Of a DNA stretch of 64,000 nucleotides, positions 8,446-54,137 are shown piece after piece (the first letter of the stretch is position 1; the number at the start of each line of letters is the position of its first letter). Below the pieces are notes generated by a model. The model did no database searches, was not told the DNA's origin, and saw nothing but the letters and a program-made list of their open reading frames with translations. The stretch lies in contig CM000151.3 in assembly GCA_000004695.1 (NCBI GenBank), positions 6,944,001 to 7,008,000 of the forward strand. The letters are read 5' to 3'. The position numbers and the translations under genes are program-made. Source of the DNA: Dictyostelium discoideum (Eukaryota).

Positions 8446-10074
8446 TTTTTAAAGAATATTACTCTTTCTTATATTATATAACTATATTTAAATCAATGTT
8501 TGTTTAATTAATAGTTAATGAATTATAAAAATAAATAATAAATAATAAATAATAAATTATATGTTTGTGTTAATGTTGGTTTTTTTTTTTTTTTAATGTG
8601 TGAATTTTTTTTTTTTTTATTTTTTTTTTTTTTTTTCAAAAAAATAAAAATTTAAAAATTAATTCCACAAGTTTGTGTGGGGTGGTGTGCTTGTGTGTTA
8701 TTATAAAAACAATTGTTTTGATATAGTTATTTATAAAAATAATTCAATTGTGATGATAATAAAATAAAATTAAAAAAAGAGATGTTTTGTAAAATTTTTT
8801 TTTTTTTGTGATTTTTTTTTTTTTTTATTTTTAATTTTAATTTTAATTATTATTATTATTATTTATTTTATTATTTATTTTATTTTTTTGTTATTATTTT
8901 AGGGTGTCTCTTTTGAACTGGAAAAGAGATTTAAAATCAGTTATATAATATATTACCTATTTAAGATTTTAATTATACAATATTGATGTATTTTACAGAT
9001 TTTTTTTTTTTTTTATTTTATTTAATACTTTTTTTTTAGTTTTTATTTTTTTACTATTTTTTTATTTTTTATTTTTATTTTTTTTTTTTTGGTTATTTAT
9101 AATATTATAAAGATAGTATAAGAAGGTTGGATAAGAAAATTGAATAAAAAAAATGAAAAATAAAAAATAAAAAAAAATAAAAAAAATAAAAAAAAATAAA
9201 AAATCGAACCTTAATTAAAAAAAATAAAAAATAAAATAAAATAAAATAAAATAAAAAATAAATTAATTTTTTTTCTTTTTTATTTTTTTGTTTTTTTTTT
9301 TATTTTATTTTTTTTTTATTTTTTTTTTATTTTTTTTTCTATTTTAATATTATTGTTTTAAAAAAATAAAAAAAAAATAAAAAAATAAAATGAAAAACAT
9401 TTCCTAATTAAAAAAAAGATTTAATTTATTTTTGATAATTAATCGTCCCTCTTTTTTAATCATAAAAATCAACCAAACAAGAATTTAGAGTTTTGGTCAA
9501 ACTTTAAGATTTTAAAAATTTTACATTTTCCATTTATGATCAATAAAAAAATAAATATCAAGATGATTAAATATTTGGCTAAAAGATAATGATCAATAAT
9601 AATTAATAATAATAATAATAATAGTAAATAGATAATATATAGATAAATATAAACAAATATATAAATAAATTTAAATAAATAAGTAGTTATTAAGCAAAAT
9701 ATATAATTCAATAATGGAAAATTGCCTCGTGCAAAATTAACTTATTTTAATGTGTTTTTATTTATTTATTTTTTTTTTTTTTTTTTTTTTTTTTTATTGG
9801 TGACTTTTGGCTATGGTATTTTCAAAATACTTTTCTGAAAAAAACAAAAAAAAAAAAAAAAAGAAATTAAAAAAAAAAGAAAAGTTTTTGGAAAACGTTA
9901 GTGATTAAACTCGAGAAAAATATCTATTTTTTATTTTATTTTATATTTTTTTAAAAAAAAAGTAAAAAAAAAGTAAAAAAAAAGTAAAAAAACAGTAAAG
10001 AAATTTTTTATTTTTACTTTTAAAAAAAAAAATATCATATTTTATTTTATATATATATATAAAAATAGAAAAAA

Positions 10075-10693
10075 ATGAATAAATTAATTTTATCTATTCT
10101 TTCTGTTTTATTAATTGTTTCAATTGCTTCAGCTGGAAATGGTATTGATATTTCATCAGGAACCAATCCATCATCAAGTGATCTTGCATGTTTAGCTAAA
10201 CAAAACTCAAAAATTATTGTCCAAACTTGGTCAGGTGGTTATGGTTTTAATTCAAACGTACCATCAATTGTTCAAGCAGCCAAATCAGCTGGATTAAGTG
10301 TTGATTTATATGCATTTTTATGTTCACAATGTAGTGGTATTACAGACCCAGCAGAAGCAATTAAAACATTGGTTTCAAAATTAAATGGAGTCAAATATGG
10401 TACTTTATGGATTGACGTTGAACAATGTAATGGTTGTTGGAGTAGTACATTATCAAGCAATGCTCAATATGTTCAAACAGCAGTACAAACCGCCTCACAA
10501 TTGGGTGTAAATGTTGGTGTATATTCAAGCGAAGGTGAATGGCCACAAACAGTTGGTTCATTAACCTCTTTATCATCATTCCCATTATGGTATGCTCATT
10601 ATGATAATAATCCAAGTTTTAGTGATCAAGGTTATAATTTTGGTGGTTGGTCTAAAGCTGTCATGAAACAATATCAAGGTAATTAAATTTTAA

Positions 10694-10730
<37 letters not shown>

Positions 10731-11794
10731 GTATTTATATTTTAATATTAATATTTAATTTTAAAATTTCAATATTATAGGTACAACTACCCAATGTGGT
10801 GTTAGTGTTGATTTGGTATGTTTAATTTATTTTTTATTTTTTATTTTTTATTTTTTGTTATCATTTAATTAATTTGTGATATTATTATTATTTTTTATTT
10901 TTAGAATTGGTTCCCAGGTAGTGGTTCATCAACAACTTCATCATCAGCAACCTCATCATCAACAACTGGAAGACCATTAACAAGTTCATCAGGTGCAGGT
11001 ACTGGTGGTCATTCAAGTTCATCAGGTGCAGGAACTGGTGGTCACTCATCAACAACTGGTGGTCAAACCTCTGGTCAAACCTCTGGTCAAACCTCTGGTT
11101 CAAGTAATCAACCACTTTCATCTGGTAGTTCCCAAGATTCTTCAAATAGTGGATCAAGTAACCAACCACTTTCATCTGGTAGTTCACAAGATTCTTCAAA
11201 TAGTGGATCAAGTAATCAACCACTTTCATCTGGTAGTTCACAAACATCTGGTCAAACATCAGGTTCAAGTAATCAACCACTTTCATCTGGTAGTTCACAA
11301 GGTATTTTTCACTATTAATTTTATTTCTTATATTTTATTTTTTTTAATTTCTCTAATAACTAACAACTATTTTATTTATTTTAATAGATTCTGGAAGTAA
11401 TAGTGGAAGTCAAGGAACAACTGGTTCACAAAGTGGTTCAAGTAGTAGTAATCCATTAACCTCTGGATCACAAAGTGGTTCAAGTGGTAGCCAATCAACA
11501 TCTTCTGGATCACAAAGTGGTTCAAGTGGTGCAACTGGAACATCTTCAACTGCTTCATCAACAAGCGCAACTGGATCATCTTCAACTGGTTCTTCAACTG
11601 GTTCATCAAGTGGTTCAAACGATAGTGGTTCAAATGACAGTGGCTCATCAAGCGGTTCAAACAACAGTGGTTCATCAAGCGGTTCAAACAACAGTGGTTC
11701 ATCAAGCGGTTCAGCCTCAAGTTCAGGTTCATCAGGTTCATCAGGAAGTGGCAATTACACTTCTGGTTCAGGAAATGGCGCTTTTTTATTCTAA
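10075..11794 (+). CDS. Secreted GH25-family lysozyme/muramidase with a C-terminal Ser/Gly/Thr-rich mucin-like repeat region. It has 4 exons.
   Basis: Exons are 10075..10678, 10781..10815, 10905..11301 and 11388..11794. There is a signal peptide (MNKLILSILSVLLIVSIASA). GH25 motifs are present: GIDISS...(Asp), ...TLWIDVEQ (D-x-E) and LWYAHYD. Exon 3/4 encode repeats such as GSSNQPLSSGSSQDSSNS x4 and SGSSSGSNNSGSS. The spurious antisense ORFs at 10888..11951 arise from this repeat. Confidence 0.8.
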
Positions 11795-40335: not shown

Positions 40336-42396
40336 TTAAAGTTCATCATGGTTTGGCATATCTTCACCAGCGCCATTTGGGGAACCACCAGCAGCACCAT
40401 ATAATTTAGAGAAGATTGGTTGAACGATCTTTTCAAGGATTTTGTATTGTTCATCAAATTCTTCTTTTTCGGCAGAGGAGTTAACATCCAACCAAGAAAG
40501 GGCATCAGAGATAGCGGTTTCAATGGTTTCTTTATCATCTGATTCGATTTTACCACCGATCTTATCTTTATCACCAATGGTGTTTTTAATTTGATAGATG
40601 TAATTTTCCAAGGTATTCTTGGCTTCGACACGTTCTTTGGCAGCTTTATCTTCATCAGCGGCATCGGCAGCTTCTTTGACCATACGATCGATATCGGCTT
40701 GTGAGAGACGTTCCTTATCGTTGGTAATGGTGATGGATTCTTTAGAACCAGAAGCTTTATCTTCAGCTGATACATGTAAAATACCATTGACATCCATTTC
40801 AAAGGTGACTTCAATTTGTGGGACACCTCTTTGAGCTGGTGGGATACCAGAGAGATCAAATTTACCCAAGAGATTGTTATCTTTGGTCATTGAACGTTCA
40901 CCTTCATAGATTTGAATGGAGACACGATCTTGATTATCTTGATAGGTTGAGAAAACTTGTGATTTCTTGGTTGGAACAAATGTACCTCTTGGGATTAAGG
41001 CAGTCATAACTCCACCAACGGTTTCAATACCGAGGGTGAGTGGGGCGATATCTAAGAGTACGAGAGTGTCAGTACCTTCTTCATTGGTGAAAATACCACC
41101 TTGAACGGCAGCACCATAGGCTACAGCCTCATCTGGATGAACACCACGATTTGGTTCTTTACCATTGAAAAAATCTTTTAAGAGTTGTTGAATCTTTGGA
41201 ATACGAGTTGAACCACCAACTAAAACTACTTCGTGGATTTGTGATTTCTTGAATTTGGCATCTTCTAATACCTTCTTTACTGGGTCTAAAGTCTTTTTGA
41301 AGAGATCCATATTGAGTTCTTCAAATTTGGCTCTGGTGAGGGTTTCAATGAGATCTTTACCATCAAAGAAGTTTTCAATCTCTAATTGGGTTTGTGGAGA
41401 GGTTGAGAGAATACGCTTGGCATTTTCAGCAGCTCTTCTTAATTTTTGGAGTGATTTCTTATCTTTTGAGGCATCTTTACCAGTCTTCTTTTGGAAAACG
41501 GTTAAGAAATGTTTCATAACACGTTGATCGAAATCTTCACCACCTAAATGAGTGTCACCATTGGTTGAACGAACTTCAAATACACCATCTTCAATGGATA
41601 AAACTGAAACATCAAATGTACCACCACCTAAATCGTAAACCAAGATATTCTTTTCCTTATCACCAGTGGCATCGAAACCATAGGCTAATGCTGCTGCGGT
41701 TGGTTCATTAATAACACGTAAAACTTCAAGACCTGCAATAACACCTGCATCCTTTGTGGCTGCACGTTGTGCATCATTGAAATAAGCTGGACATGTTACA
41801 ACGGCGTGAGTTACTGTCTTACCAAGGGATGCTTCGGCAATTTCCTTCATTCTACCAAGGATCATTGCTGAGATTTCTTCTGGTGAGTAAGTCTTTTCTT
41901 CACCTTTAACTTTAACTACAACGTATGGTTTATTATTTTTTGAAACAATTTTATATGGTAATAATTTCATATCTCTTTGAACTTCTTCATCATCAAATCT
42001 AAAAAAAAAAAAAATAAATAAAAAAATAATTAGTTATATATTTAAAAAAAAAAAAATAAATAAAAAATAATTAATTAATTACCTTCTACCAATTAAACGT
42101 TTAATATCAAAAATTGTATTTTCTGGGTTGAGAGTTGCTTGATTCTTTGCAGCTTCACCAATGAGACGTTCAGTTTCAGTGAATGCAACATATGATGGAG
42201 TAATACGATTACCTTGATCATTTGGAATAATTTCAACTTTACCTTTCTTGAAGACACCAACACATGAATAGGTAGTACCTAAATCAATACCAATAACACT
42301 TCCATAATCTTTCTTTTCTTCTTCTTTCTTTTCAGCTGCTGCTGCAAAAGAAATTAATAATAATAAACATAATAATGCGTAAATGGATTTATTCAT
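40336..42396 (-). CDS. grp78: ER-luminal Hsp70 chaperone BiP/GRP78, with a signal peptide and a C-terminal HDEL. It has 2 exons.
   Basis: Exon 1 is 42396..42083 ([49 protein letters not shown]...[12 protein letters not shown]) with donor GTAATT. Exon 2 is 41998..40336 ([28 protein letters not shown]...[11 protein letters not shown]...[10 protein letters not shown]). Hsp70 signatures are present throughout. Confidence 0.95.
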
Positions 42397-44935: not shown

Positions 44936-46122
44936 ATGGCAACAAGAGATAGAACACCATCATATCTTTTATTAAAAATCGAATATAACAATAGAAGACC
45001 CATTAACCATAAGAAATCAACATCAAATTATGAAACATTAGATGAAGAGAATAGAAATGGTATGATACCATTAGTATCATTAAACAATAATAATTATAAA
45101 AATGGCGCAAATATTGATACTAGTCCAAAATTACAACAATTAAATGTAATACCTGCGTGGATGCAAAGAATAAATGATATAGATGTAAATCTATCAAAAA
45201 TTCATTCTCAAAGTAAGTTTTTTTTTTTTTTATTTTTTTAATTTTTATTTTTTTTTTTTTTATTTCCTAAACTATACATATTAATTTTTTTTATTTTTTA
45301 TTTTTTTTTTAATAATAATAATAAATAGTTGAAAAATTAAAAGGATATCATGATAAAAATTTATTACCAGATATGAGTTTGGAAGATCAATCAGATTTAG
45401 AAAGATCAATTGAAATTACTACTTCTGAAACTACAAGAGTATTTATTTTTAAAATAATAAAAAAAAAAAAAAAAAAAAACTAATTTTTTATATATTTTTA
45501 GTTATTCCATAAAACACATGATATGATAATAAATTTAGGTGGTGATAAAGGTACAATTTTTACATCAGAAGATATAAAGATTAAAAAAAATGTACAACAA
45601 TCGAAATCAGCGAAATTACAATCATTATCAGTATTATTTAGACGAAAACAAAGTAATTATTTAAAAGCATTAAGAAAAAGGTCAAATTCATTTACAGATT
45701 TATATAATAAAAGTGGACTTGCTAAAGAAGAAGAAGAAGAAGAAGGAGAAGGAGAAGAGGAAAATCAACTTTGGCAAGAAATCGAATTCGATTTTACAAA
45801 TGAACAAAAACAAATAGTCAAATTAATGGAAATTGAAATTTCATCAAGAGATAAAGAAATTAGAAATCTACTTGAATCAATCAATGATTTAACTCGATTA
45901 TTTCAAGATATAAGTTTATTAGTTGCTCAACAAGGTACTATATTAGATAGAATAGATTATAATTTAAATGAAACCGAGTCAATGGTAACTGACGCAACAG
46001 ATGTAGTTATTATAATAAATAAAAAGCATAAAGAATATAGATCAAGATTATGTATATTAATGGTTTTAGTTGCTTTAGTTGTTTCAATGATTTTCATTAT
46101 TATTTTAAAAATGGTATTCTAA
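44936..46122 (+). CDS. Syntaxin-16/Tlg2-like Qa-SNARE, copy 1 of a tandem array. It has 3 exons.
   Basis: Exons are 44936..45212, 45329..45438 and 45502..46122, with GTAAGT/GTATTT donors. It has an N-peptide MATRDRTPSYLLLK, consistent with an SM-protein/Vps45-binding motif. The SNARE motif is RDKEIRNLLESINDLTRLFQDISLLVAQQGTILDRIDYNLNETESMV, with a zero-layer Q. There is a C-terminal TM helix (LCILMVLVALVVSMIFIIIL). Confidence 0.85.
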
Positions 46123-46159
46123 TTTTATAAAATTAAAAAATAAAATAAAGTTAAATTTT

Positions 46160-46224
<65 letters not shown>

Positions 46225-46869
46225 AATTAATTCTAAATTTTTATGAAAATTTTATTATTGATGATATTTTTATTTTGTGGAGCTTTAAAATTGAAGTGAT
46301 TGATAACTACACACTGTTTAGGGGGGTTTGATTTTTATTACTTTTTGATTTTCAGACCACGAAAACAATTTTTTATTTTTTTTTTTTTGACACATTCACA
46401 AAAAAAAAGTTTGCCCCTGGTGATGAAGAATTTAAAAATATCTTTTATGTCAAAAAATTCCTTAATCTAGATTTTTTTGGAAAAAAATTTTTATTTCATA
46501 GAAAAAAACAGAAAATCTGATTTTCTGGTGATTGTCAAAAAAAAAAAAAAATAAAAAAAAATAAAATTTTTTTTGTTTTTTTTTTTTTGTTTTTTTTTTA
46601 CTTTTTTTTTTTTTTTTTAATTTTAAAATCAAGTGTTGTGCTAAAAGGTGCCGTAGTAAAATATAAAAAAAAAAAAAGTATTGTTGAAACACAAAACAAC
46701 ACGTTTTTTTTCTGAAAAAAAAAAAAAAAACAAAAAAAAACAGAACCAAACAAAAAATAAAAAAAATAAAAAAAATAAATAAATAAAATAAAAATAAATA
46801 AAAATAAATAAAAATAAATAAAAAAAAAAAATAAAAAAAATAGGGTTTAGAAATCATAATTTTTAAAAA

Positions 46870-48122
46870 ATGGCAACAAGAGACATAACATCATCATATA
46901 TTTTATCAAGAACAGAATGTAAAAATCGTGCAAAAATAATAAATAGTGCAATTAATATTAATATTAAAAAATCAGGATCAGGTTATAAAAGATTAGAAGA
47001 AGAGAATTATCAAGATATTGATATTGATAATAATAATAATAATAATAATATAAATAATAATAATATAAATAATAATGACAATGATAATGATACTACTAAT
47101 AATATAAAGAACAGTAATAATAATAATGATATACAATTAAATATACTCGATACTGAAATAAATATAGAACAATTAAATTCATTACCACCATGGATTCTAA
47201 AATTAAATGATATAGATGAGAATATTAAAAAAATTATATCATTAAGTATGTCTTTTTTTTTTTTTATCATCATCCCATTTTAAAAAAAATAATTATTAAT
47301 TAAAAAAAAAAAAAAAATAAAGTTGAAAAATTTAAAAAATATTTAAAAGAAGATATTGATAAAATTTTAGCAGAAGATATTGAAATGGAAAGTAGAATTG
47401 ATTGTGAAAGATCAATTGAACTTTTAACGATGGAAACAATTAGATTATTTCATAAAACATTTGATATGATAAAGTATTTAAATAAAAGTAATAATTCAAG
47501 TCAAGGTGAAAATAAAATGAAAAAGAATACACAGAGAATGAAATCTGCAAAATTAAAAGCATTATTAATAACATTCAAACATATTCAAAGGTCATATTTA
47601 GCATTGTTAAAGAAAGTATCAAGTTTACAACGGAGTTTATCTTCATCATTTTTATATAGAAGTGGTGAATATGATGTAAATAATGATAATGAAGATTATG
47701 GTGAGAATAGTAGTATTAGCAATTCACATTATCTTCAACATCATCACAACAACAACCACCACCATGAAGATGATCATGATCATGAGGAAGATCATGAAGA
47801 GATTATGGATGAATTAAATGAAATGGCAACTACATTAATTGAAAGACAAAGAGTATCTCAATTAATTAAAGAAACTTCTCATTTAATTCAAGACGTTGGC
47901 TCAATGTGTGTAAAAAAAGATTCAATTTTTGATAGAATAGATTACAATTTAGCTGAAGGTGAAGAATTAGAATTTAATGGTACTATTTTAATTTGTGATG
48001 GTATTACTAATGGTTATGAAAGACCAGAAAATGAAAAAAGAAAAAAATTATTATTGATTTTTGCTGTTTTAATCATAGTAATATTGTTCATATTTATTTT
48101 AAAATATGTAATTGAAATTTAA
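46870..48122 (+). CDS. Divergent syntaxin-16-like paralog, copy 2. It has 2 exons. The exon 2/3 intron is lost, a His/acidic insertion is present and the zero-layer Gln is replaced.
   Basis: Exon 1 is 46870..47245 with a GTATGT donor. Exon 2 is 47323..48122. It has an N-peptide MATRDITSSYILSR. The region homologous to copies 1 and 3 (..SIELLTMETIRLFHKTFDMIKYL..) is continuous here, so the intron is absent. There is an insertion ..HYLQHHHNNNHHHEDDHDHEEDHEE... The SNARE core is IQDVGSMCVKKDSIFDRIDYNL, compared with LVAQQGTILDRIDYNL in copy 1. The TM tail is LLLIFAVLIIVILFIFIL. Confidence 0.75.
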
Positions 48123-48584
48123 ATTATAAATACTAAATAAATAAAACAAAGAAATAAATAATTAAATAAATTTATTTTTACATCGGATACCAGTAAAAAA
48201 AAAAAAAAAAAAATTGAAAAATCCAAGAATTTCTTTTCATATTTATTTTAAATTTTTATATTTTATAAAATTAAAAATTAATTATTTTATTTTATTATTA
48301 TTTATTATTTTCTGGAAAGCAGAAAAAATCAAAATTATCAAAAGCATTATAATTTGATTTTATCAATAATTTGGATTCATATTGCTAATAAATTTTATTT
48401 TCAAATAAATAAAAAAAAAAATAAAAAAAAAAAAATTTATAAAAAATTTTAATTTCAAAAAATAATAATATTTAATAATAAAATAATAATAACAAAATTA
48501 AAATTAAAGAAATAATAATATATAAAATAAAAATAAAATAATTGTTTTATTTAATTAAATTATTATTATTAATTTAATTAAAAT

Positions 48585-48621
<37 letters not shown>

Positions 48622-48968
48622 TTAATAATATTTTAAAAAGATTATTTTGTTTGATTTTTAAAAAAAAAAAAAGTCATCGTGAGCAAACAATCAGTTTTTT
48701 AAAAAATAGATTAATTAATAAAAAAAAGAATTCATTATTACCATCTTGTTATTAAATTTACCCAATCTTCTGCATTAATTACTTTATTTTTGACATTTTA
48801 AGAAACAAAGTTTTAATAATTTTTTTATTATCCAAGAATTAAATACAATTTTTGAATTAATGCAAAATAAAAGAAATAAATTTAAAAAACAAAAAAATAA
48901 AAGTAAAAATAAAAAACAAAAAAATAAAAATAAAAATAAAAAAAAAGTAATTATGTCTGGTAATGATT

Positions 48969-49009
<41 letters not shown>

Positions 49010-49305
49010 TTTTTTTTATTTTTGTTTTAAAAATTAACGACCACCTCAATAAAACCAAAAATTAAAAAAAAAAAAAAAAAAAAAAATTTATAAAAAATAT
49101 CAAAATAATTGTGCGTTTCAAATTATTTTTTTTATTTATTTATTTAATAACAATAACAAAAAGGATTAATAAAACTTTACAACTAAACAGCAAAGATTAT
49201 AATTTCTTAATTAATAAACAAAACACACACCCACACATATACATATATATATATATATTTATTTTTATAAATATATATATATTAATTATTATATAGCAGA
49301 CCTAA

Positions 49306-50463
49306 ATGGCAACAAGAGATAGAACCCCTTCATTTAATTTAATAAAATCAGAATACAAGAATAGAAGACCCTCAAGACACTATGGTAATGAATCAGATGA
49401 AGATAGTAATAATGTACCATTAGTATCTCTTAATAGAGCTGGAAATAATATTCATAATAACAATAATAATGACCTTAATTTACAAAAATTAAATGTATTA
49501 CCAGCATGGATGCAAAGAGTTAATGATATAGATGTAAACTTAACAAAAATTTCACAACAAAGTAAGTAATATATTCTTCTTCTTTTTTTTTTTTATTCAT
49601 TCATTCATTTATTTAAAATATTTAACCTAAAAAGATAAAATTATTAACAACAACAACAACAACAACAACAATAATAATACATAATAATAATAATAATAAA
49701 TAGTTGAAAAATTAAAAGGATATCATGATAAAAATTTATTACCAGATATGAGTATGGAAGATCAATCGGATTTAGAAAGATCAATTGAAATTACAACTGC
49801 TGAAACTACAAGAGTATTTATCAACATATTATTATTAATAAAATAATTAAATAATAAAAATACTAACATTATTAATATTTTTAGTTATTTCATAAAACAC
49901 ATGATATGATAAAAAATTTAGGTGGTAAAGGTACAATATTATCAGCAGAAGATATGAAAATGAAAAAGAATATACAATCAAGTAAATCAGCAAAATTACA
50001 ATCACTTTCATTATCATTTAGACAAAAACAAAGAACTTATTTAACAGCATTACAAAAAAGGTCAAATTCATTTTCAGATTTGTATAATGACCAAAATGAT
50101 GATGATGATGGTGAAAATGCAATCGATTTAGATTTTACAGATGAATTAAAACAAGTTGTAAATGCAATGGAAGAAGAAATCACTCAAAGAGATAAAGAAA
50201 TTAGAAAAATCGTTGCATCAATCAATGATTTATCTCATTTATTCCAAGATATAAGTGTATTGGTTGTTCAACAAGGTACTTTATTAGATAGAATAGATTA
50301 TAATTTAAATCAAACTGAAGCATATACTCAAGAAGCAGTCGTTGAAATTGATGAAACAAATAAAATACATAAAGAATATAGAACTAGATTATGTATATTA
50401 ATGATTTTAGTTGCTTTGGTTGTTGCAATGGTTTTCATATTTATTCTTAGATTCATTTTTTAA
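49306..50463 (+). CDS. Syntaxin-16/Tlg2-like Qa-SNARE, copy 3. It has 3 exons and is closely related to copy 1.
   Basis: Exons are 49306..49561, 49704..49813 and 49885..50463. A TACTAAC branch site sits at 49861-49867. It has an N-peptide MATRDRTPSFNLIK. The SNARE motif is RDKEIRKIVASINDLSHLFQDISVLVVQQGTLLDRIDYNLNQTE. The TM tail is LCILMILVALVVAMVFIFIL. Exon 2 is the same length (110 nt) as in copy 1. Confidence 0.85.
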
Positions 50464-50953: not shown

Positions 50954-53355
50954 TTATTGAGTTTGTGGTCTACTATTATTACTACTATTACTCATATTTA
51001 ATTGATGTAAAGAAGAAACGCTATTTCTAAAAGCCATACCAGAACTTTGATTTAATGAATTATTTGTTGAATTTGAACCATTTACAATTGTTTTCAAGTT
51101 AATATTTTCATTTCTTAGATAAGAATTTTCTGATTGAAGAACATCCAATTGAGTTTGAAGTTTAGAAACCAAATTTGGATCGGTTGGAGATAAAACTTGA
51201 CCATTACTAGTATTGAGAAGGTTTTGTTGTTGAAGCCAATTGGTGAGTGTGGATATCTTATCTTCAAGATAGGAAATATGAGTTGCTTGGGAGTCGAGTT
51301 TTGATTGAATTTTATTATTCTTTCTACCACTGGTACCTCTACTACTCTTTTTATATTTTGAAGATTTATAATCTCTATCTCTACTTCTGTCTCTACTTCT
51401 ATCAGAATCAGATGATCTATCTCTGGATTTATTTCTACTATCACGACTTCTACTTCTTCTTCTGTTGGAATGACTTCTTGAACGATCTCTACTTCTATCC
51501 CTACTATCAGAATCTCTACTTCTTGAACGATCTCTGCTTCTATCTCTACTTCTATCTCTATCCCTTTCTCTACTTCTATCTCTTGAACGATCTCTACTTC
51601 TATCTCTATCTCTTGAACGATCTCTACTTCTATCTCTTTCTCTATCTCTACTTCTATCTCTTGAACGATCTCTACTTCTGTCTCTATCTCTTTCTCTGTC
51701 TCTATCTCTTTCCCTTTCTCTTTCTCTATCTCTGTCTCTTGAACGATTATGTCTATCTCTTTCTCTTTCTCTGTCTCTACTAACATTTCTACTTCTAGAG
51801 TTTTTATAGGTTTTATTAGAACGATCACGGTCACGTTCACGTTCACGATCTCTTTTACTATTGCTACTACTGCTACTGCTCTTTTTCTTTTTATAAGATT
51901 TTCTATCACTTTCATATCTACTAGAGTGTTCATCAGAGCTCGAAGTATGAGAGGTTGAATCTGAACTCTCTGATAAAGAGGAGGCTCTTGATGATTGTCT
52001 AGATTTTGATTTATTTGATTTACTGGTAGAGTTATTTTCTTTATCGGAAGATGGAGATGGGGGTTTTGATAGAGCACTACCCGATGCAGATATTAATTCT
52101 CTATTGTATGCGCCATTACTACTAATACTACTATTATTACTATTTATCATAGCTGGATCTTGTTGTTGTTGTGGTATTTGTTGTTGATGTTGTAATGGTG
52201 ATTTTGGTGAGGTTGTAACCAATGATGGAATATTACCATGAGATGAAGAGGATGGTATACTACCTTCTTTCTTTGGTGAGGTTTTTGGTGGAGTTATTAA
52301 ATCAGATTGATTTAATTTAACAATATTTATAGCGTTGATCGGACTTGGAGTTTTAATTGGTTGTTGTAGTTGATGTTGTTGTTGTGGTGGTTGTAAGGTT
52401 TGAGGTTGTTGAGTGTTATTTACAACAGTTGTTGATGCTGCTGAAGATGTTGGGTGAATTGAACTATGTGCTAAACCATGAACATTACTATGTGCGCTTG
52501 CACCCAAATTACTACTGGCGTTATGGTTCGGTATACTTCCAGATGAATGGGATAAATGATGATGTTGTTGTTGTTGGTGATAAGCAGCTGCAGTAACTGG
52601 AATAGCTGTTGGTAAGGTTAATGGTACAACTGGTGGAGGAACGACAGTCGATGATGATCCAAGTGCTGTATGATTACTTGTTGGTGTAGATGTTCTACTA
52701 TGACTTGGTGTTGAACCTGGTGATGTTGATGGTGTGTGTGATGGCGTTTCAAATGGTGATTGAGTTAAATTTTCTTTAGTTTTATTATTATTATTATTAT
52801 TATTATTTGATGGATTTGTAGTTGTAGTTGTAGTTGTTGTAGTTGTAGTTGATGAATTATTATTATCATTATTTTCATTTGGAAATATCCATTCATCAGC
52901 TGAATTACTATGACCAGTATCAAATTGTGGTGAAGAAGTATTTCTAAGCATAGCAAATGAATCTTCGGATAACATTTGATATCTTTGACCTAATGGTGGT
53001 AATTTTGCCAAAATATGTTGAACTAAATAATCTGGTTTCTTTGCTTGCTTAAAGAATCTATGTTCTAAAAGTTTTGAAGGTAATGGTCTTTTAGATGGAT
53101 CCTTTTGAAGACATTTTTCAACTAAATCTTTAAAACTATGAGACCATTTACTTTCGCCATCCCCCTCCAATGATGGTGGTGGGTTTTGAAGTGTCAATAA
53201 TAAAACTTTCATTGGTGGATATTCTGCAAAAGGTGCCTTACCTCTTGCAAGTTCTAATGCTGTAATACCAAATGACCAAATATCAACTGCATAATCATAA
53301 TTAACTTGTTCCATAATTTCCTAAATTTTTTAAAAAAAATAAAATAAAATAATTA

Positions 53356-53398
<43 letters not shown>

Positions 53399-54137
53399 AT
53401 TTAAAATTTAAACTTACAGGTGCCATCCAACAAGGTGTACCAACAAAAGTATTTCTACTTGTTTCACCAGTATCAATTAATGTTGCACTAACACCAAAAT
53501 CACTTAATTGAATGTTACCATTTGAATCGATTAAAATATTACCAGATTTAATATCTCTATGAATTCTGCCAGTTTTATGAAAATAGCAAATTGCTTTCAA
53601 AGCTTCTTTGAGGATAGTGGCGATAACATGTTCTTCAAAACCTTGAGGGAATGAAAATCTCATGATATCAGAGCATGAGCCAGCTGATAAAAAATCCATA
53701 ATTACCCATAGTGACTCGTTATATACAAAACTTGTGTGGTATGCAACTACATTTGGATGATGACAAAGACTCATTGCCTGTATTTCCTTTCTAATCTCTT
53801 CTAATGATACGTTTTTACAATGCTCTAAATCTATAATCTTTATAGCTACATTCTCTTGAAATGGTAAACATATTGCACGTTGTACTAATCCGCTTCCACC
53901 TTTACCAATGGTTTCCTTAAGTTCATATTGATCTGCTGAATTTGGGTAATTTTTTCTTGGTTTTGGTGTTATTGGAGATGCTGCCGTTGTTGTTGTTGAC
54001 GTTGTTGTTGTTGTTGTTGTCATGGAGGAGGATGAAGCTAATGTCGATGATGATGATAATGCTGCTGCTGTACTTTGCTTTGAATCTATATGATGCTTAT
54101 CATGATGTTTATCATGATGATATTTATCATCGGACAT
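50954..54137 (-). CDS. STE20-family OSR1/SPAK (Fray)-like Ser/Thr kinase with a long C-terminal extension. The extension contains an RS/RD/RE dipeptide-repeat (SR-protein-like) domain and a terminal coiled coil. It has 2 exons.
   Basis: Exon 1 is 54137..53418 (...YELKETIGKGGSGLVQRAICLPFQENVAIKIIDLEHC...HRDIKSGNILIDSNGNIQLSDFGVSATL..TFVGTPCWMAP) with a GTAAGT donor. Exon 2 is 53320..50954 ([52 protein letters not shown]...). This follows the OXSR1 kinase domain nearly residue by residue, and a PF1-like ..SADEWIFPNE.. segment follows it. About 180 aa of SRDRSRDRSRDRERDR... repeats follow (nt about 51300-51800), then LDSQATHISYLEDKISTLTNWLQQQNL..LQTQLDVLQSENSYLRNENINLKTI. The antisense/alternative-frame ORFs at 51115..52077 and 51247..51958 are repeat artefacts. 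Confidence 0.9.

What the first reader, a model, noticed from the sequence alone, without database searches (positions are those of the whole stretch)
44936..50463. Tandem array of three syntaxin-16/Tlg2-like Qa-SNARE genes with a divergent middle member
Three co-oriented paralogs lie within 5.5 kb. Copies 1 and 3 are conventional: an MATRDRT N-peptide, a Q-containing SNARE motif (..QQGT(I/L)LDRIDYNL), a TM anchor and three exons. Copy 2 (46870-48122) has lost the second intron and acquired a His/Asp/Glu-rich insertion (HHHNNNHHHEDDHDHEEDHEE). Its predicted zero-layer position is changed from Q to K (VKKDSIFDRIDYNL). A Qa-SNARE without the ionic-layer glutamine, sitting next to two canonical copies, suggests neofunctionalisation, for example an inhibitory or regulatory SNARE or a metal-binding variant.
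Basis: partly seen in the sequence, partly recalled or inferred. Interest (0 to 1): 0.6.

Follow-up and report, generated by a model that had tools for sequence, protein, structure and literature searches.

The report
Syntaxin-16 gene trio with deviant member
Three neighbouring Dictyostelium genes encode syntaxin-16-type membrane-fusion proteins, and the middle one is a conserved, selected variant that has lost the key central glutamine and the membrane-proximal half of its fusion helix, so it probably regulates fusion rather than drives it.

Summary
The window is D. discoideum AX4 chromosome 2. My three gene models are identical to XP_643157, XP_643158 (DDB_G0276515, "hypothetical protein") and XP_643159. 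All three match Tlg2/syntaxin-16 best among solved structures.

Copy 3 is the conserved housekeeping gene (dN/dS 0.03-0.12). Copy 1 is canonical but evolves faster.

Copy 2 really has lysine at the ionic zero layer. HMMER aligns it to the Tlg2 glutamine with no gap before DRIDYNL. It is not a pseudogene:
- It is intact, with the lysine, one intron and the His-rich insert, in all six genomes examined (five named species of the D. discoideum complex).
- Its dN/dS is 0.19-0.39, and 0.11-0.17 in the Habc domain and the N-terminal half of the SNARE motif.

New here: the segment from layer +4 to the membrane anchor is Gly/Pro-rich, five residues too long, under relaxed constraint, and predicted non-helical. 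Copy 3 is predicted as one continuous helix. Of 161 syntaxin-16-family sequences aligned, 157 have Q, three have S, and only copy 2 has K.

Most likely copy 2 is a membrane-anchored, non-fusogenic regulatory paralogue. That step is inferred, not shown. No paper found describes it. It is a new variant of a known kind, of moderate interest.

The parts
44936..46122 (+). Copy 1: canonical syntaxin-16/Tlg2-type Qa-SNARE, 335 aa. Exons 44936-45212, 45329-45438 and 45502-46122. Zero-layer Q273 is codon 45931-45933. The TM anchor is 46048-46119.
   Evidence: The model equals XP_643157/Q869U2. Best solved-structure match is Tlg2, E = 7e-20. Orthologue dN/dS is 0.18-0.48.
46870..48122 (+). Copy 2 (DDB_G0276515): divergent paralogue, 391 aa. 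Exons 46870-47245 and 47323-48122, with a single intron.
   Evidence: The model equals XP_643158/Q551H6. Best solved-structure match is Tlg2, E = 2e-4. It gets no Pfam SNARE hit. It is intact in six genomes with dN/dS 0.19-0.39.
46870..46911 (+). Copy 2 N-peptide, MATRDITSSYILSR. It keeps R4, D5, T7 and the aromatic residue at position 10.
   Evidence: A2, T3, R4, D5 and T7 are at least 90% conserved across 33 family members. That this motif binds the SM protein Vps45 in Tlg2/Stx16 is established knowledge and was not tested here.
47188..47660 (+). Copy 2 Habc three-helix domain, residues 107-238 (it spans the intron).
   Evidence: AF2 predicts helices 107-141, 147-176 and 186-238 with pLDDT up to 93. 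It aligns to the Tlg2 Habc domain. pN/pS is 0.17.
47739..47801 (+). His/Asp/Glu-rich insertion HHHNNNHHHEDDHDHEEDHEE, residues 265-285, in the Hc-SNARE linker.
   Evidence: It is present with variable length in all six orthologues, and the HDHEEDHEE core is conserved. AF2 predicts disorder, pLDDT below 50 for residues 236-278. pN/pS is 0.52.
47844..47954 (+). Copy 2 retained part of the SNARE motif, layers -7 to +3 (residues 300-336).
   Evidence: Layer table. This is the most constrained part of the protein, with pN/pS 0.11-0.14 for -7..0 and 0.20-0.23 for +1..+3. AF2 predicts a helix at 278-336.
47916..47918 (+). Zero-layer codon AAA = K324. The same position is CAA = Q in copies 1 and 3.
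   Evidence: The codon is AAA in five orthologues and AAG in D. dimigraforme, so K is kept through a synonymous change.
47955..48029 (+). Copy 2 degenerate segment replacing layers +4 to +8 and the juxtamembrane linker (EGEELEFNGTILICDGITNGYERPE).
   Evidence: AF2 predicts it non-helical with pLDDT below 50. Copy 3 is one helix at 208-313 with the same alignment. The segment from the residue after +3 to the TM anchor is 32 residues with 5 Gly+Pro, against a family median of 27 (5-95%: 25-28) and 0-3 Gly+Pro in 139 of 141. pN/pS is 0.55-0.63.
48030..48116 (+). Copy 2 C-terminal transmembrane anchor with its basic stop-transfer residues (residues 362-390).
   Evidence: AF2 predicts a helix at 362-390. 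It is conserved in all orthologues, with pN/pS 0.24-0.34.
49306..50463 (+). Copy 3: the conserved syntaxin-16 orthologue, 314 aa. Exons 49306-49561, 49704-49813 and 49885-50463. Zero-layer Q252 is codon 50272-50274. The TM anchor is 50389-50460.
   Evidence: The model equals XP_643159/Q551H5. It passes the Pfam SNARE cut-off and matches Tlg2 at E = 5e-21. dN/dS is 0.03-0.12, with no non-synonymous change in layers -7..+3. It groups with D. purpureum P0026.

Best explanation
The locus is a tandem family of syntaxin-16/Tlg2-class Qa-SNARE genes (the syn16 genes of dictyBase), lying between an Hsp70 gene and a protein-kinase gene.

Copy 3 is the conserved TGN/endosomal Qa-SNARE. Copy 1 is a canonical but faster-evolving duplicate.

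Copy 2 (DDB_G0276515) is a functional gene specific to the D. discoideum species complex.
- It keeps everything needed to be recognised as a syntaxin-16: the N-peptide, the Habc domain, SNARE layers -7 to +3 and the membrane anchor.
- It has lysine instead of glutamine in the ionic layer.
- It has replaced layers +4 to +8 and the stiff linker with a longer, Gly/Pro-rich, non-helical tether.

Inferred mechanism: copy 2 still docks onto the Syn16 machinery, meaning Vps45 and/or the cognate Qb, Qc and R helices, through its conserved N-terminal parts. It cannot zipper to the membrane or transmit force. It would therefore act as a membrane-anchored, non-fusogenic competitor or regulator (an i-SNARE-like "half SNARE").

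Shown: gene structure, family, register, conservation, selection pattern and outlier status. Inferred: partner binding and inhibition.
For: Family:
- Tlg2 is the best solved-structure match for all three copies.
- Foldseek on the copy 2 model returns Sso1/Sso2, syntaxin-1 and Tlg2 as top hits.

K at layer 0:
- Supported.
- Among 161 family sequences aligned (the best 150 representatives plus earlier hits), 157 have Q, 3 have S, and K occurs only in copy 2.

Retained function:
- The ORF is intact, with K and the same single intron, in 6 genomes of 5 named species.
- dN/dS is 0.19-0.39, with Fisher p from 1e-6 to 1e-14 against neutrality.
- Constraint is concentrated in Habc (0.17) and SNARE layers -7..0 (0.11-0.14). 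It is relaxed from +4 to the TM anchor (0.55-0.63).
- The K codon shows a synonymous AAA/AAG change.

Loss of the C-terminal half:
- AF2 breaks the helix after +3 in copy 2. The same alignment gives a continuous SNARE-to-TM helix in copy 3.
- Copy 2 is an outlier for both length and Gly+Pro content.

Precedents from papers:
- In yeast Sso1, K, R and P are the only poorly tolerated residues at the zero layer. Q224K abolishes sporulation (PMC2600744).
- A Qc-SNARE truncated at +3/+4 enters partially zipped, fusion-defective complexes and is a potent competitive inhibitor (PMC5643095).
- A Qa paralogue has already been proposed as an i-SNARE (tSNARE1, bioRxiv 10.1101/2021.02.09.430442).
Against: - I could reach no expression, localisation, binding or knockout data. 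No held paper mentions DDB_G0276515 or its UniProt accession.
- Gly at +4, +6 and +8 sits exactly where Qa-SNAREs carry small residues (T/A/T in copy 3). A heptad imprint therefore persists, and the segment might still fold on a template.
- AF2 confidence for copy 2 is modest (mean pLDDT 62.6), and disorder in a monomer model does not prove inability to zipper.
- Copy 1 also shows relaxed constraint in its +4..TM segment (0.62), so relaxation alone is not diagnostic.
- Sso1 Q224K still supports slow vegetative growth, so K alone does not kill a Qa-SNARE.
Confidence: 0.5

Rival explanations
1. Copy 2 is still a fusogenic Qa-SNARE, but for a private complex with a rotated or compensated ionic layer. 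Its lysine would supply the positive charge and pair with a partner (an R-SNARE paralogue or another helix) that carries Q, D or E instead of R. This would give an orthogonal fusion step specific to the D. discoideum complex.
For: - Selection on layers -7 to +3, including K, is strong.
- In yeast, Sso1 Q224R works when Snc2 carries R52Q, and the Q224K defect is attributed to a charge clash with the R-SNARE arginine (PMC2600744).
- Gly at +4, +6 and +8 keeps heptad spacing.
- The TM anchor is kept.
Against: - The +4..TM segment is 5 residues longer than the tightly fixed family length. It has Pro and 4 Gly, Glu at +5, relaxed constraint and a predicted helix break.
- Zippering beyond +5 is needed for fusion in vivo for the vacuolar Qc (PMC5643095).
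- No compensating partner was identified. I could not scan the rest of the genome.
Confidence: 0.2
2. Copy 2 acts independently of four-helix bundle formation. It would be a membrane-bound sink or adaptor for the SM protein Vps45 (or other Habc/N-peptide binders), held in a closed Habc-H3 conformation. The conserved N-terminal half of the SNARE motif would serve only for intramolecular packing.
For: - The conserved parts are exactly those that contact the SM protein and form the closed state in syntaxins: the N-peptide residues, Habc, and the SNARE motif up to about +3.
- The best structural and sequence matches are Tlg2 in complex with Vps45 and closed Sso1/syntaxin-1.
Against: - Apart from the motif residues, the first 30 residues are weakly constrained (pN/pS 0.71).
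- Position 6 of the N-peptide varies between orthologues (I/N/Q).
- No binding data exist.
- This overlaps with the best explanation rather than excluding it.
Confidence: 0.2
3. Copy 2 is a decaying duplicate (a functionless gene or young pseudogene). Its odd residues would simply reflect relaxed constraint and the AT-biased mutation pressure of the genome (CAA to AAA).
For: - It gets no Pfam SNARE hit.
- It sits on a long branch.
- It has low-complexity N-rich and His-rich insertions.
- Q-to-K is a single C-to-A change.
- The array shows gene gain and loss between species.
Against: - The ORF is intact with conserved splice sites in six genomes.
- dN/dS is 0.19-0.39, far below 1, and 0.11-0.17 in Habc and the N-terminal SNARE half.
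- K is kept through a synonymous change.
Confidence: 0.05
4. The key novelty of copy 2 is the His/Asp/Glu-rich insert. It would make copy 2 a metal-binding (Zn/Ni/Cu) or pH-sensing SNARE.
For: A His-rich tract with a conserved HDHEEDHEE core is present in all six orthologues.
Against: - It lies in a linker that is acidic and low-complexity in copies 1 and 3 too (EEEEEEGEGEEE, DDDDGEN).
- Its length varies from about 10 to 25 residues.
- It is predicted disordered and weakly constrained.
- Codon-repeat tracts are commonplace in this genome (own knowledge).
Confidence: 0.05

Closest known systems
Syntaxin-16 / yeast Tlg2 (Qa.III.d SNAREs of the TGN/endosome, partner of the SM protein Vps45)
   Same: All three copies share the N-peptide MATRD.T..(F/Y), the Habc bundle, a DRIDYNL-type SNARE motif and a C-terminal TM anchor. 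Tlg2 is the best solved-structure match for each. Copies 1 and 3 have the canonical Q and a continuous SNARE-TM helix.
   Different: Copy 2 has K at layer 0 and C at -1, plus R at -7, T at -4 and E at +5. It has a non-helical, over-long +4..TM segment and a His-rich linker insert. It falls below Pfam's SNARE threshold.
i-SNAREs (Varlamov/Rothman concept) and the candidate Qa i-SNARE tSNARE1
   Same: In both cases a syntaxin paralogue could enter cognate complexes yet be unable to drive fusion, and so would act as a competitive inhibitor (PMC3627133; bioRxiv 10.1101/2021.02.09.430442).
   Different: tSNARE1 keeps a normal SNARE motif but mostly lacks the TM anchor. Copy 2 keeps the anchor but lacks the membrane-proximal half of the motif and the ionic-layer Q. 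Inhibition by copy 2 is untested.
Engineered C-terminally truncated SNAREs (yeast Vam7 Qc-3delta and Qc-4delta)
   Same: The helix ends at about layer +3/+4. Such proteins form partially zipped, fusion-defective trans-complexes and are potent competitive inhibitors (PMC5643095).
   Different: Those are artificial, soluble Qc constructs. Copy 2 is a natural, selected, membrane-anchored Qa.
Yeast Sso1 zero-layer mutants (Q224K, Q224R)
   Same: They have the same substitution at the same position of a Qa-SNARE. K is one of only three poorly tolerated residues, and the defect is attributed to a clash with the R-SNARE arginine (PMC2600744).
   Different: Those are laboratory mutations in an otherwise normal SNARE. 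In copy 2 the K is fixed and conserved across species, and it comes with other layer changes.

Membership tests
Syntaxin-16/Tlg2 Qa-SNARE | Best sequence match is Tlg2/Stx16 rather than other syntaxin classes | tested here: met
   E-values to Tlg2 (6xm1/6xmd) are 5e-21 for copy 3, 7e-20 for copy 1 and 2e-4 for copy 2. The next best match, syntaxin-1A, scores 8e-10, 3e-8 and 0.38.
Syntaxin-16/Tlg2 Qa-SNARE | N-terminal peptide of the SM-binding type (R4, D5, T7, aromatic at 10) | tested here: met
   The peptides are MATRDRTPSY (copy 1), MATRDITSSY (copy 2) and MATRDRTPSF (copy 3). These residues are at least 90% conserved across 33 relatives. Binding itself was not tested.
Syntaxin-16/Tlg2 Qa-SNARE | Three-helix Habc domain | tested here: met
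   AF2 predicts three long helices in copy 2 (107-238) and copy 3 (67-190). HMMER aligns both to the Tlg2 Habc domain. Foldseek top hits are syntaxins.
Syntaxin-16/Tlg2 Qa-SNARE | Glutamine at the ionic zero layer | tested here: not met
   Met for copies 1 and 3 (Q273, Q252). Not met for copy 2, which has K324 in all six orthologues. Family background is 157 Q, 3 S and 1 K, the K being copy 2.
Syntaxin-16/Tlg2 Qa-SNARE | Continuous 16-layer heptad SNARE motif (-7 to +8) joined to the TM anchor by a short helical linker | tested here: not met
   Met for copy 3 (continuous helix 208-313), and for copy 1 by sequence. Copy 2 has a helix only to +3, then 25 residues with pLDDT below 50. The segment from the residue after +3 to the TM anchor is 32 residues against a family range of 25-28, with 5 Gly+Pro. 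This rests on prediction and comparison, not on experiment.
Syntaxin-16/Tlg2 Qa-SNARE | C-terminal transmembrane anchor | tested here: met
   A hydrophobic C-terminal helix is present in all three copies.
Syntaxin-16/Tlg2 Qa-SNARE | Forms a QabcR complex with Vti1, Tlg1/Stx6 and an R-SNARE, and binds Vps45 | not testable with these tools
   This needs biochemistry or multimer modelling.
i-SNARE (inhibitory SNARE) | Enters cognate SNARE complexes, yields non-fusogenic products and lowers fusion when present | not testable with these tools
   Only indirect support: the N-terminal half is conserved, the C-terminal half is lost, and truncation mutants provide a precedent (PMC5643095).
Pseudogene | Stop codons or frameshifts, or dN/dS near 1 | tested here: not met
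   The ORF is intact in six genomes. dN/dS is 0.19-0.39, significantly below 1.

The most novel reading that the evidence does not exclude
Copy 2 is a naturally evolved, membrane-anchored "half SNARE". It would be a Qa paralogue that social amoebae of the D. discoideum complex keep specifically to brake or redirect Syn16/Vps45-dependent TGN-endosome fusion. Alternatively it would build an orthogonal complex in which its lysine replaces the R-SNARE arginine. Either way it would be a genetically tractable natural example of regulation by an incomplete or charge-rotated SNARE.
Probability: 0.4. Interest if true: 0.6.

Novelty: new variant of a known kind. Interest (0 to 1): 0.45.

Why it matters
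The ionic-layer glutamine of syntaxins is one of the most conserved residues in eukaryotic membrane traffic. Lysine is one of the few residues that a yeast Qa-SNARE tolerates poorly there.

Copy 2 combines that lysine with loss of the force-transmitting half of the motif, yet it is held under purifying selection. That makes it a natural test case for two ideas that so far rest mostly on engineered proteins:
- inhibitory SNAREs;
- partially zipped complexes as regulatory states.

It sits in a model organism where knockouts, overexpression and trafficking assays are routine, next to two canonical paralogues that serve as built-in controls. If it turns out to be merely a tolerated oddity, the cost is small. 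The genes themselves are already annotated.

Tried and rejected
- **Remnant of a fourth copy.** I looked for one in the window's intergenic regions, because D. citrinum has an extra K-type copy between copies 2 and 3. tblastn found nothing outside the three genes.
- **Gene conversion between copies 1 and 3.** I suspected this because exon 2 is 93-100% identical at the nucleotide level. The same exon is almost as conserved between species, and even in D. purpureum, so concerted evolution is not needed.
- **First NJ tree.** The bootstrap values were distorted by rooting, so I redid the tree. The deep placement of the copy 2 clade stays unresolved and may be affected by long-branch attraction. 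I therefore do not claim whether copy 2 arose before or after the D. purpureum split.
- **Word-indexed protein searches with copy 2.** The candidate lists saturate and even miss the D. purpureum Syn16 genes. Absence of copy 2 outside the D. discoideum complex is therefore only weakly supported. The two D. purpureum loci have no extra copy within 10 kb.
- **P0003.** This 48-aa "representative" of the copy 2 cluster is an unrelated fragment.
- **Literature.** Searches for DDB_G0276515, Q551H6, Q869U2, Q551H5 and syn16B found nothing. Only syn16A is mentioned, as a differentially expressed gene (PMC12954983). I could not tell whether it is copy 1 or copy 3.
- **Kloepper 2007 SNARE classification.** This paper is not held.
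- **tRNA genes.** None lie in 40-55 kb.

Full report
**What is there**

The region is AT-rich Dictyostelium DNA. I built spliced gene models from GT..AG introns:
- Copy 1: exons 44936-45212, 45329-45438 and 45502-46122; 335 aa.
- Copy 2: exons 46870-47245 and 47323-48122; 391 aa.
- Copy 3: exons 49306-49561, 49704-49813 and 49885-50463; 314 aa.

All three translations are letter-identical to D. discoideum AX4 chromosome 2 proteins. These are XP_643157/Q869U2 and XP_643159/Q551H5 ("t-SNARE family protein") and XP_643158/Q551H6 (DDB_G0276515, "hypothetical protein"). An Hsp70 gene lies upstream (- strand, 40336-41970 and beyond). A protein-kinase gene lies downstream (- strand, 50954-54137). The same order, Hsp70 - copies 1, 2, 3 - a ~1,000-aa minus-strand gene in the kinase's position, recurs in sister genomes.

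**Family and layer register**

Among solved structures, Tlg2 (the Vps45-Tlg2 complex, 6xm1/6xmd) is the best sequence match for each copy. E-values are 5e-21 for copy 3, 7e-20 for copy 1 and 2e-4 for copy 2, well ahead of syntaxin-1A.

HMMER aligns copy 3 LVVQQGTLLDRIDYN to syntaxin-1A LVESQGEMIDRIEYN and to Tlg2 MVIDQGTLLDRIDYN. It aligns copy 2 MCVKKDSIFDRIDYN to the same Tlg2 stretch without gaps. The Q of "SQGEM" in syntaxin-1A is the zero-layer Q226 (my own knowledge: Fasshauer 1998, Sutton 1998). The second K of copy 2 (K324, codon AAA at 47916-47918) therefore occupies the ionic layer.

Pfam's SNARE model passes for copy 3, falls below the cut-off for copy 1, and finds nothing in copy 2. 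An AF2 model of copy 2 (mean pLDDT 62.6) has a three-helix Habc domain. Its best Foldseek matches in the PDB are Sso1/Sso2, syntaxin-1 and Tlg2.

**How unusual the lysine is**

An exhaustive HMMER scan with copy 3 found 1,005 relatives at E <= 1e-10. I aligned the best 150 representatives together with earlier hits. At the zero layer, 157 have Q, three environmental sequences have S, and only copy 2 has K.

Yeast provides an experimental reference. Saturation mutagenesis of Sso1 Q224 showed that nearly every residue is tolerated for growth, except P and R (non-functional) and K. K gives slow growth and complete loss of sporulation, attributed to a clash with the R-SNARE arginine (PMC2600744).

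A layer table shows changes at many layers:

| Layer | Copy 2 | Family / copy 3 |
|---|---|---|
| -7 | R | I |
| -4 | T | L |
| -3 | I | F |
| -1 | C | V |
| 0 | K | Q |
| +4 | G | T |
| +5 | E | T/V |
| +6 | G | A/G |
| +8 | G | T/A |

The segment between layer +3 and the membrane anchor is AEGEELEFNGTILICDGITNGYERPENEKRKK. It is 32 residues long with four Gly and one Pro. In 141 family members with a recognisable anchor, this length is tightly fixed (median 27; 5-95% range 25-28). Gly+Pro is 0-3 in 139 of them. Copy 2 is the only genuine outlier.

With the same 33-sequence alignment, AF2 predicts one continuous helix from the SNARE motif through the anchor in copy 3 (residues 208-313, pLDDT 81-90). 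In copy 2 the helix stops at residue 336 (layer +3), followed by 25 residues with pLDDT below 50, and then the TM helix.

The His/Asp/Glu insertion (residues 265-285; 47739-47801) lies in the Hc-SNARE linker. That linker is also acidic and low-complexity in copy 1 (EEEEEEGEGEEE) and copy 3 (DDDDGEN), and it is predicted disordered.

**It is a maintained gene, not a wreck**

Protein searches and locus retrieval gave the orthologous arrays in five further genomes:
- another D. discoideum strain;
- D. cf. discoideum;
- D. citrinum;
- D. firmibasis;
- D. dimigraforme.

Exact exon models could be fitted to every annotated protein. I rebuilt the D. dimigraforme copy 2 myself (403 aa), because the record fuses it into a 440-aa gene. 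All six copy 2 orthologues are intact. All have the single intron, C-V-K-K-D-S, a His-rich tract and the anchor. The zero-layer codon is AAA in five and AAG in D. dimigraforme.

Nei-Gojobori dN/dS between orthologues:

| Copy | dN/dS |
|---|---|
| Copy 3 | 0.03-0.12 |
| Copy 1 | 0.18-0.48 |
| Copy 2 | 0.19-0.39 |

For copy 2, Fisher p ranges from 1e-6 to 1e-14 against pN = pS. Within copy 2 the constraint is uneven:

| Region of copy 2 | pN/pS |
|---|---|
| Habc | 0.17 |
| Layers -7..0 | 0.11-0.14 |
| Layers +1..+3 | 0.20-0.23 |
| TM anchor | 0.24-0.34 |
| +4..TM | 0.55-0.63 |
| His linker | 0.52 |
| First 30 residues | 0.71 |

The R4, D5, T7 and Y/F10 motif residues within the first 30 residues are kept. 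Copy 3 has no non-synonymous change at all in layers -7..+3.

**History**

The array changes between sister species:
- D. citrinum has a fourth gene between copies 2 and 3 (my model is 288 aa). It also has K at layer 0 (FCIEKNS), C at -1 and a single intron. It groups with copy 2 at 100% bootstrap.
- D. firmibasis has a different extra copy, with a one-residue insertion just after the Q (KDQGILLLDRIDY).

Q-to-K and the intron loss therefore predate the copy 2 / fourth-gene split.

Other dictyostelids carry two Syn16 paralogues each, all with Q. In D. purpureum one of them (P0042) lies next to the Hsp70 gene, so it is syntenic with this array. The copy 3-like gene (P0026) is elsewhere. Neither locus has a further copy within 10 kb.

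The NJ tree supports three groupings: a copy 2 clade (100%), a copy 1 clade (95%) and copy 3 with D. purpureum P0026 (78%). It does not resolve where the long copy 2 branch attaches.

**Mechanism**

Shown:
- Copy 2 keeps, under selection, the parts by which a syntaxin-16 is recognised: the N-peptide motif, Habc, the N-terminal half of the SNARE motif and the anchor.
- It has lost the ionic-layer Q and a helix-competent C-terminal half and linker.

Inferred: it can engage Vps45 and/or cognate helices but cannot finish zippering or transmit force. It would therefore act as a non-fusogenic competitor or regulator. Two precedents support this:
- Vam7 truncated at +3/+4 forms partially zipped, fusion-defective complexes and inhibits competitively, and zippering beyond +5 is needed in vivo (PMC5643095).
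- The i-SNARE concept has a Qa candidate in tSNARE1 (PMC3627133).

I put about 0.5 on this reading. The rivals are:
- a private fusogenic complex with a compensated ionic layer (0.2);
- a Vps45 sink that never enters a bundle (0.2, overlapping with the main reading);
- decay (0.05, largely refuted);
- a metal-binding role for the His tract (0.05).

Caveats:
- I could reach no expression or functional data.
- Gly at +4, +6 and +8 keeps heptad spacing at positions where Qa-SNAREs have small residues.
- Copy 1 also has a relaxed +4..TM segment.
- Monomer AF2 disorder does not prove inability to zipper.

**Novelty**

The three genes are annotated, and at least one is named syn16A (PMC12954983). 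I found no paper mentioning DDB_G0276515 or describing its zero-layer lysine or truncated motif. It is a new variant of a known kind: a syntaxin-16 paralogue. It is moderately interesting, because it is a natural, selected counterpart of engineered zero-layer and truncation mutants, in a tractable organism.

Noticed in passing
L001 9522-9762 + 9860-10480 (D. citrinum, between the copy 2 and copy 3 orthologues): D. citrinum has a fourth array member. By my model it is 288 aa; it is annotated as 254 aa (P0025) and as 289 aa in a second strain (P0024). It has K at the zero layer (FCIEKNS / FCIEKDS), C at -1 and a single intron, and is sister to the copy 2 clade. tblastn finds no counterpart or remnant in the D. 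discoideum window.
   Followed up: partly
L002 6383-7556 (D. firmibasis, between copies 1 and 2; P0049): D. firmibasis has a species-specific extra three-exon paralogue (288 aa). It keeps the Q but has a one-residue insertion right after it (KDQGILLLDRIDYNL). That insertion would shift the heptad register between layers 0 and +1.
   Followed up: no
L003 9725-13162 (D. dimigraforme): The copy 2 orthologue is annotated as a 440-aa gene spanning 3.4 kb. A two-exon model (9725-10148, 10273-11060) gives an intact 403-aa orthologue. It has a 60-residue poly-Asn tract and the K codon AAG.
   Followed up: yes
window 45329-45438 and 49704-49813 (exon 2 of copies 1 and 3): The 110-nt middle exon is almost invariant at the nucleotide level, third codon positions included. 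This holds between the two paralogues and across species: 1-8 differences among most D. discoideum-complex copies (9-13 for the D. dimigraforme copy 1) and 7-15 to D. purpureum. The flanking exons are only 60-85% identical. Gene conversion alone does not explain this. It may reflect a nucleotide-level constraint or codon bias.
   Followed up: partly
L007 10001-11098 and L004 10001-11221 (D. purpureum): D. purpureum has two unlinked Syn16 paralogues. The divergent one (P0042, QQSGVLDNIENNL) sits beside the Hsp70 gene, in the position of the D. discoideum array. The copy 3-like one (P0026, three introns) is in a different neighbourhood. P. violaceum, T. lacteum and A. subglobosum also have two paralogues each.
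   Followed up: partly
P0037, P0135, P0157 (environmental and Logan assemblies): Three syntaxin-16-family representatives of unknown organisms have Ser at the zero layer (LVVDSGTILDRIDYNM). They were the only other non-Q cases among the 161 family sequences aligned.
   Followed up: no
P0044 (Synstelium polycarpum, EukProt, 399 aa): This protein contains two Syn16-like SNARE motifs in series and has no TM anchor after the first. It looks like an annotation fusion of two tandem genes, which would mean tandem Syn16 duplication in another dictyostelid lineage.
   Followed up: no
window 50954-54137, - strand: A protein-kinase gene is split by an intron. Its long C-terminal tail is made of Arg-Asp/Arg-Ser dipeptide repeats (RDRSRDRSRD...) and homopolymer tracts. 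A ~1,000-aa minus-strand gene with no Pfam hit on record sits in the same position downstream of copy 3 in the sister genomes; I did not test whether it is a kinase.
   Followed up: partly
window 46160-46225: A perfect (TTTA)n microsatellite of about 16 units lies immediately downstream of the copy 1 stop codon.
   Followed up: no
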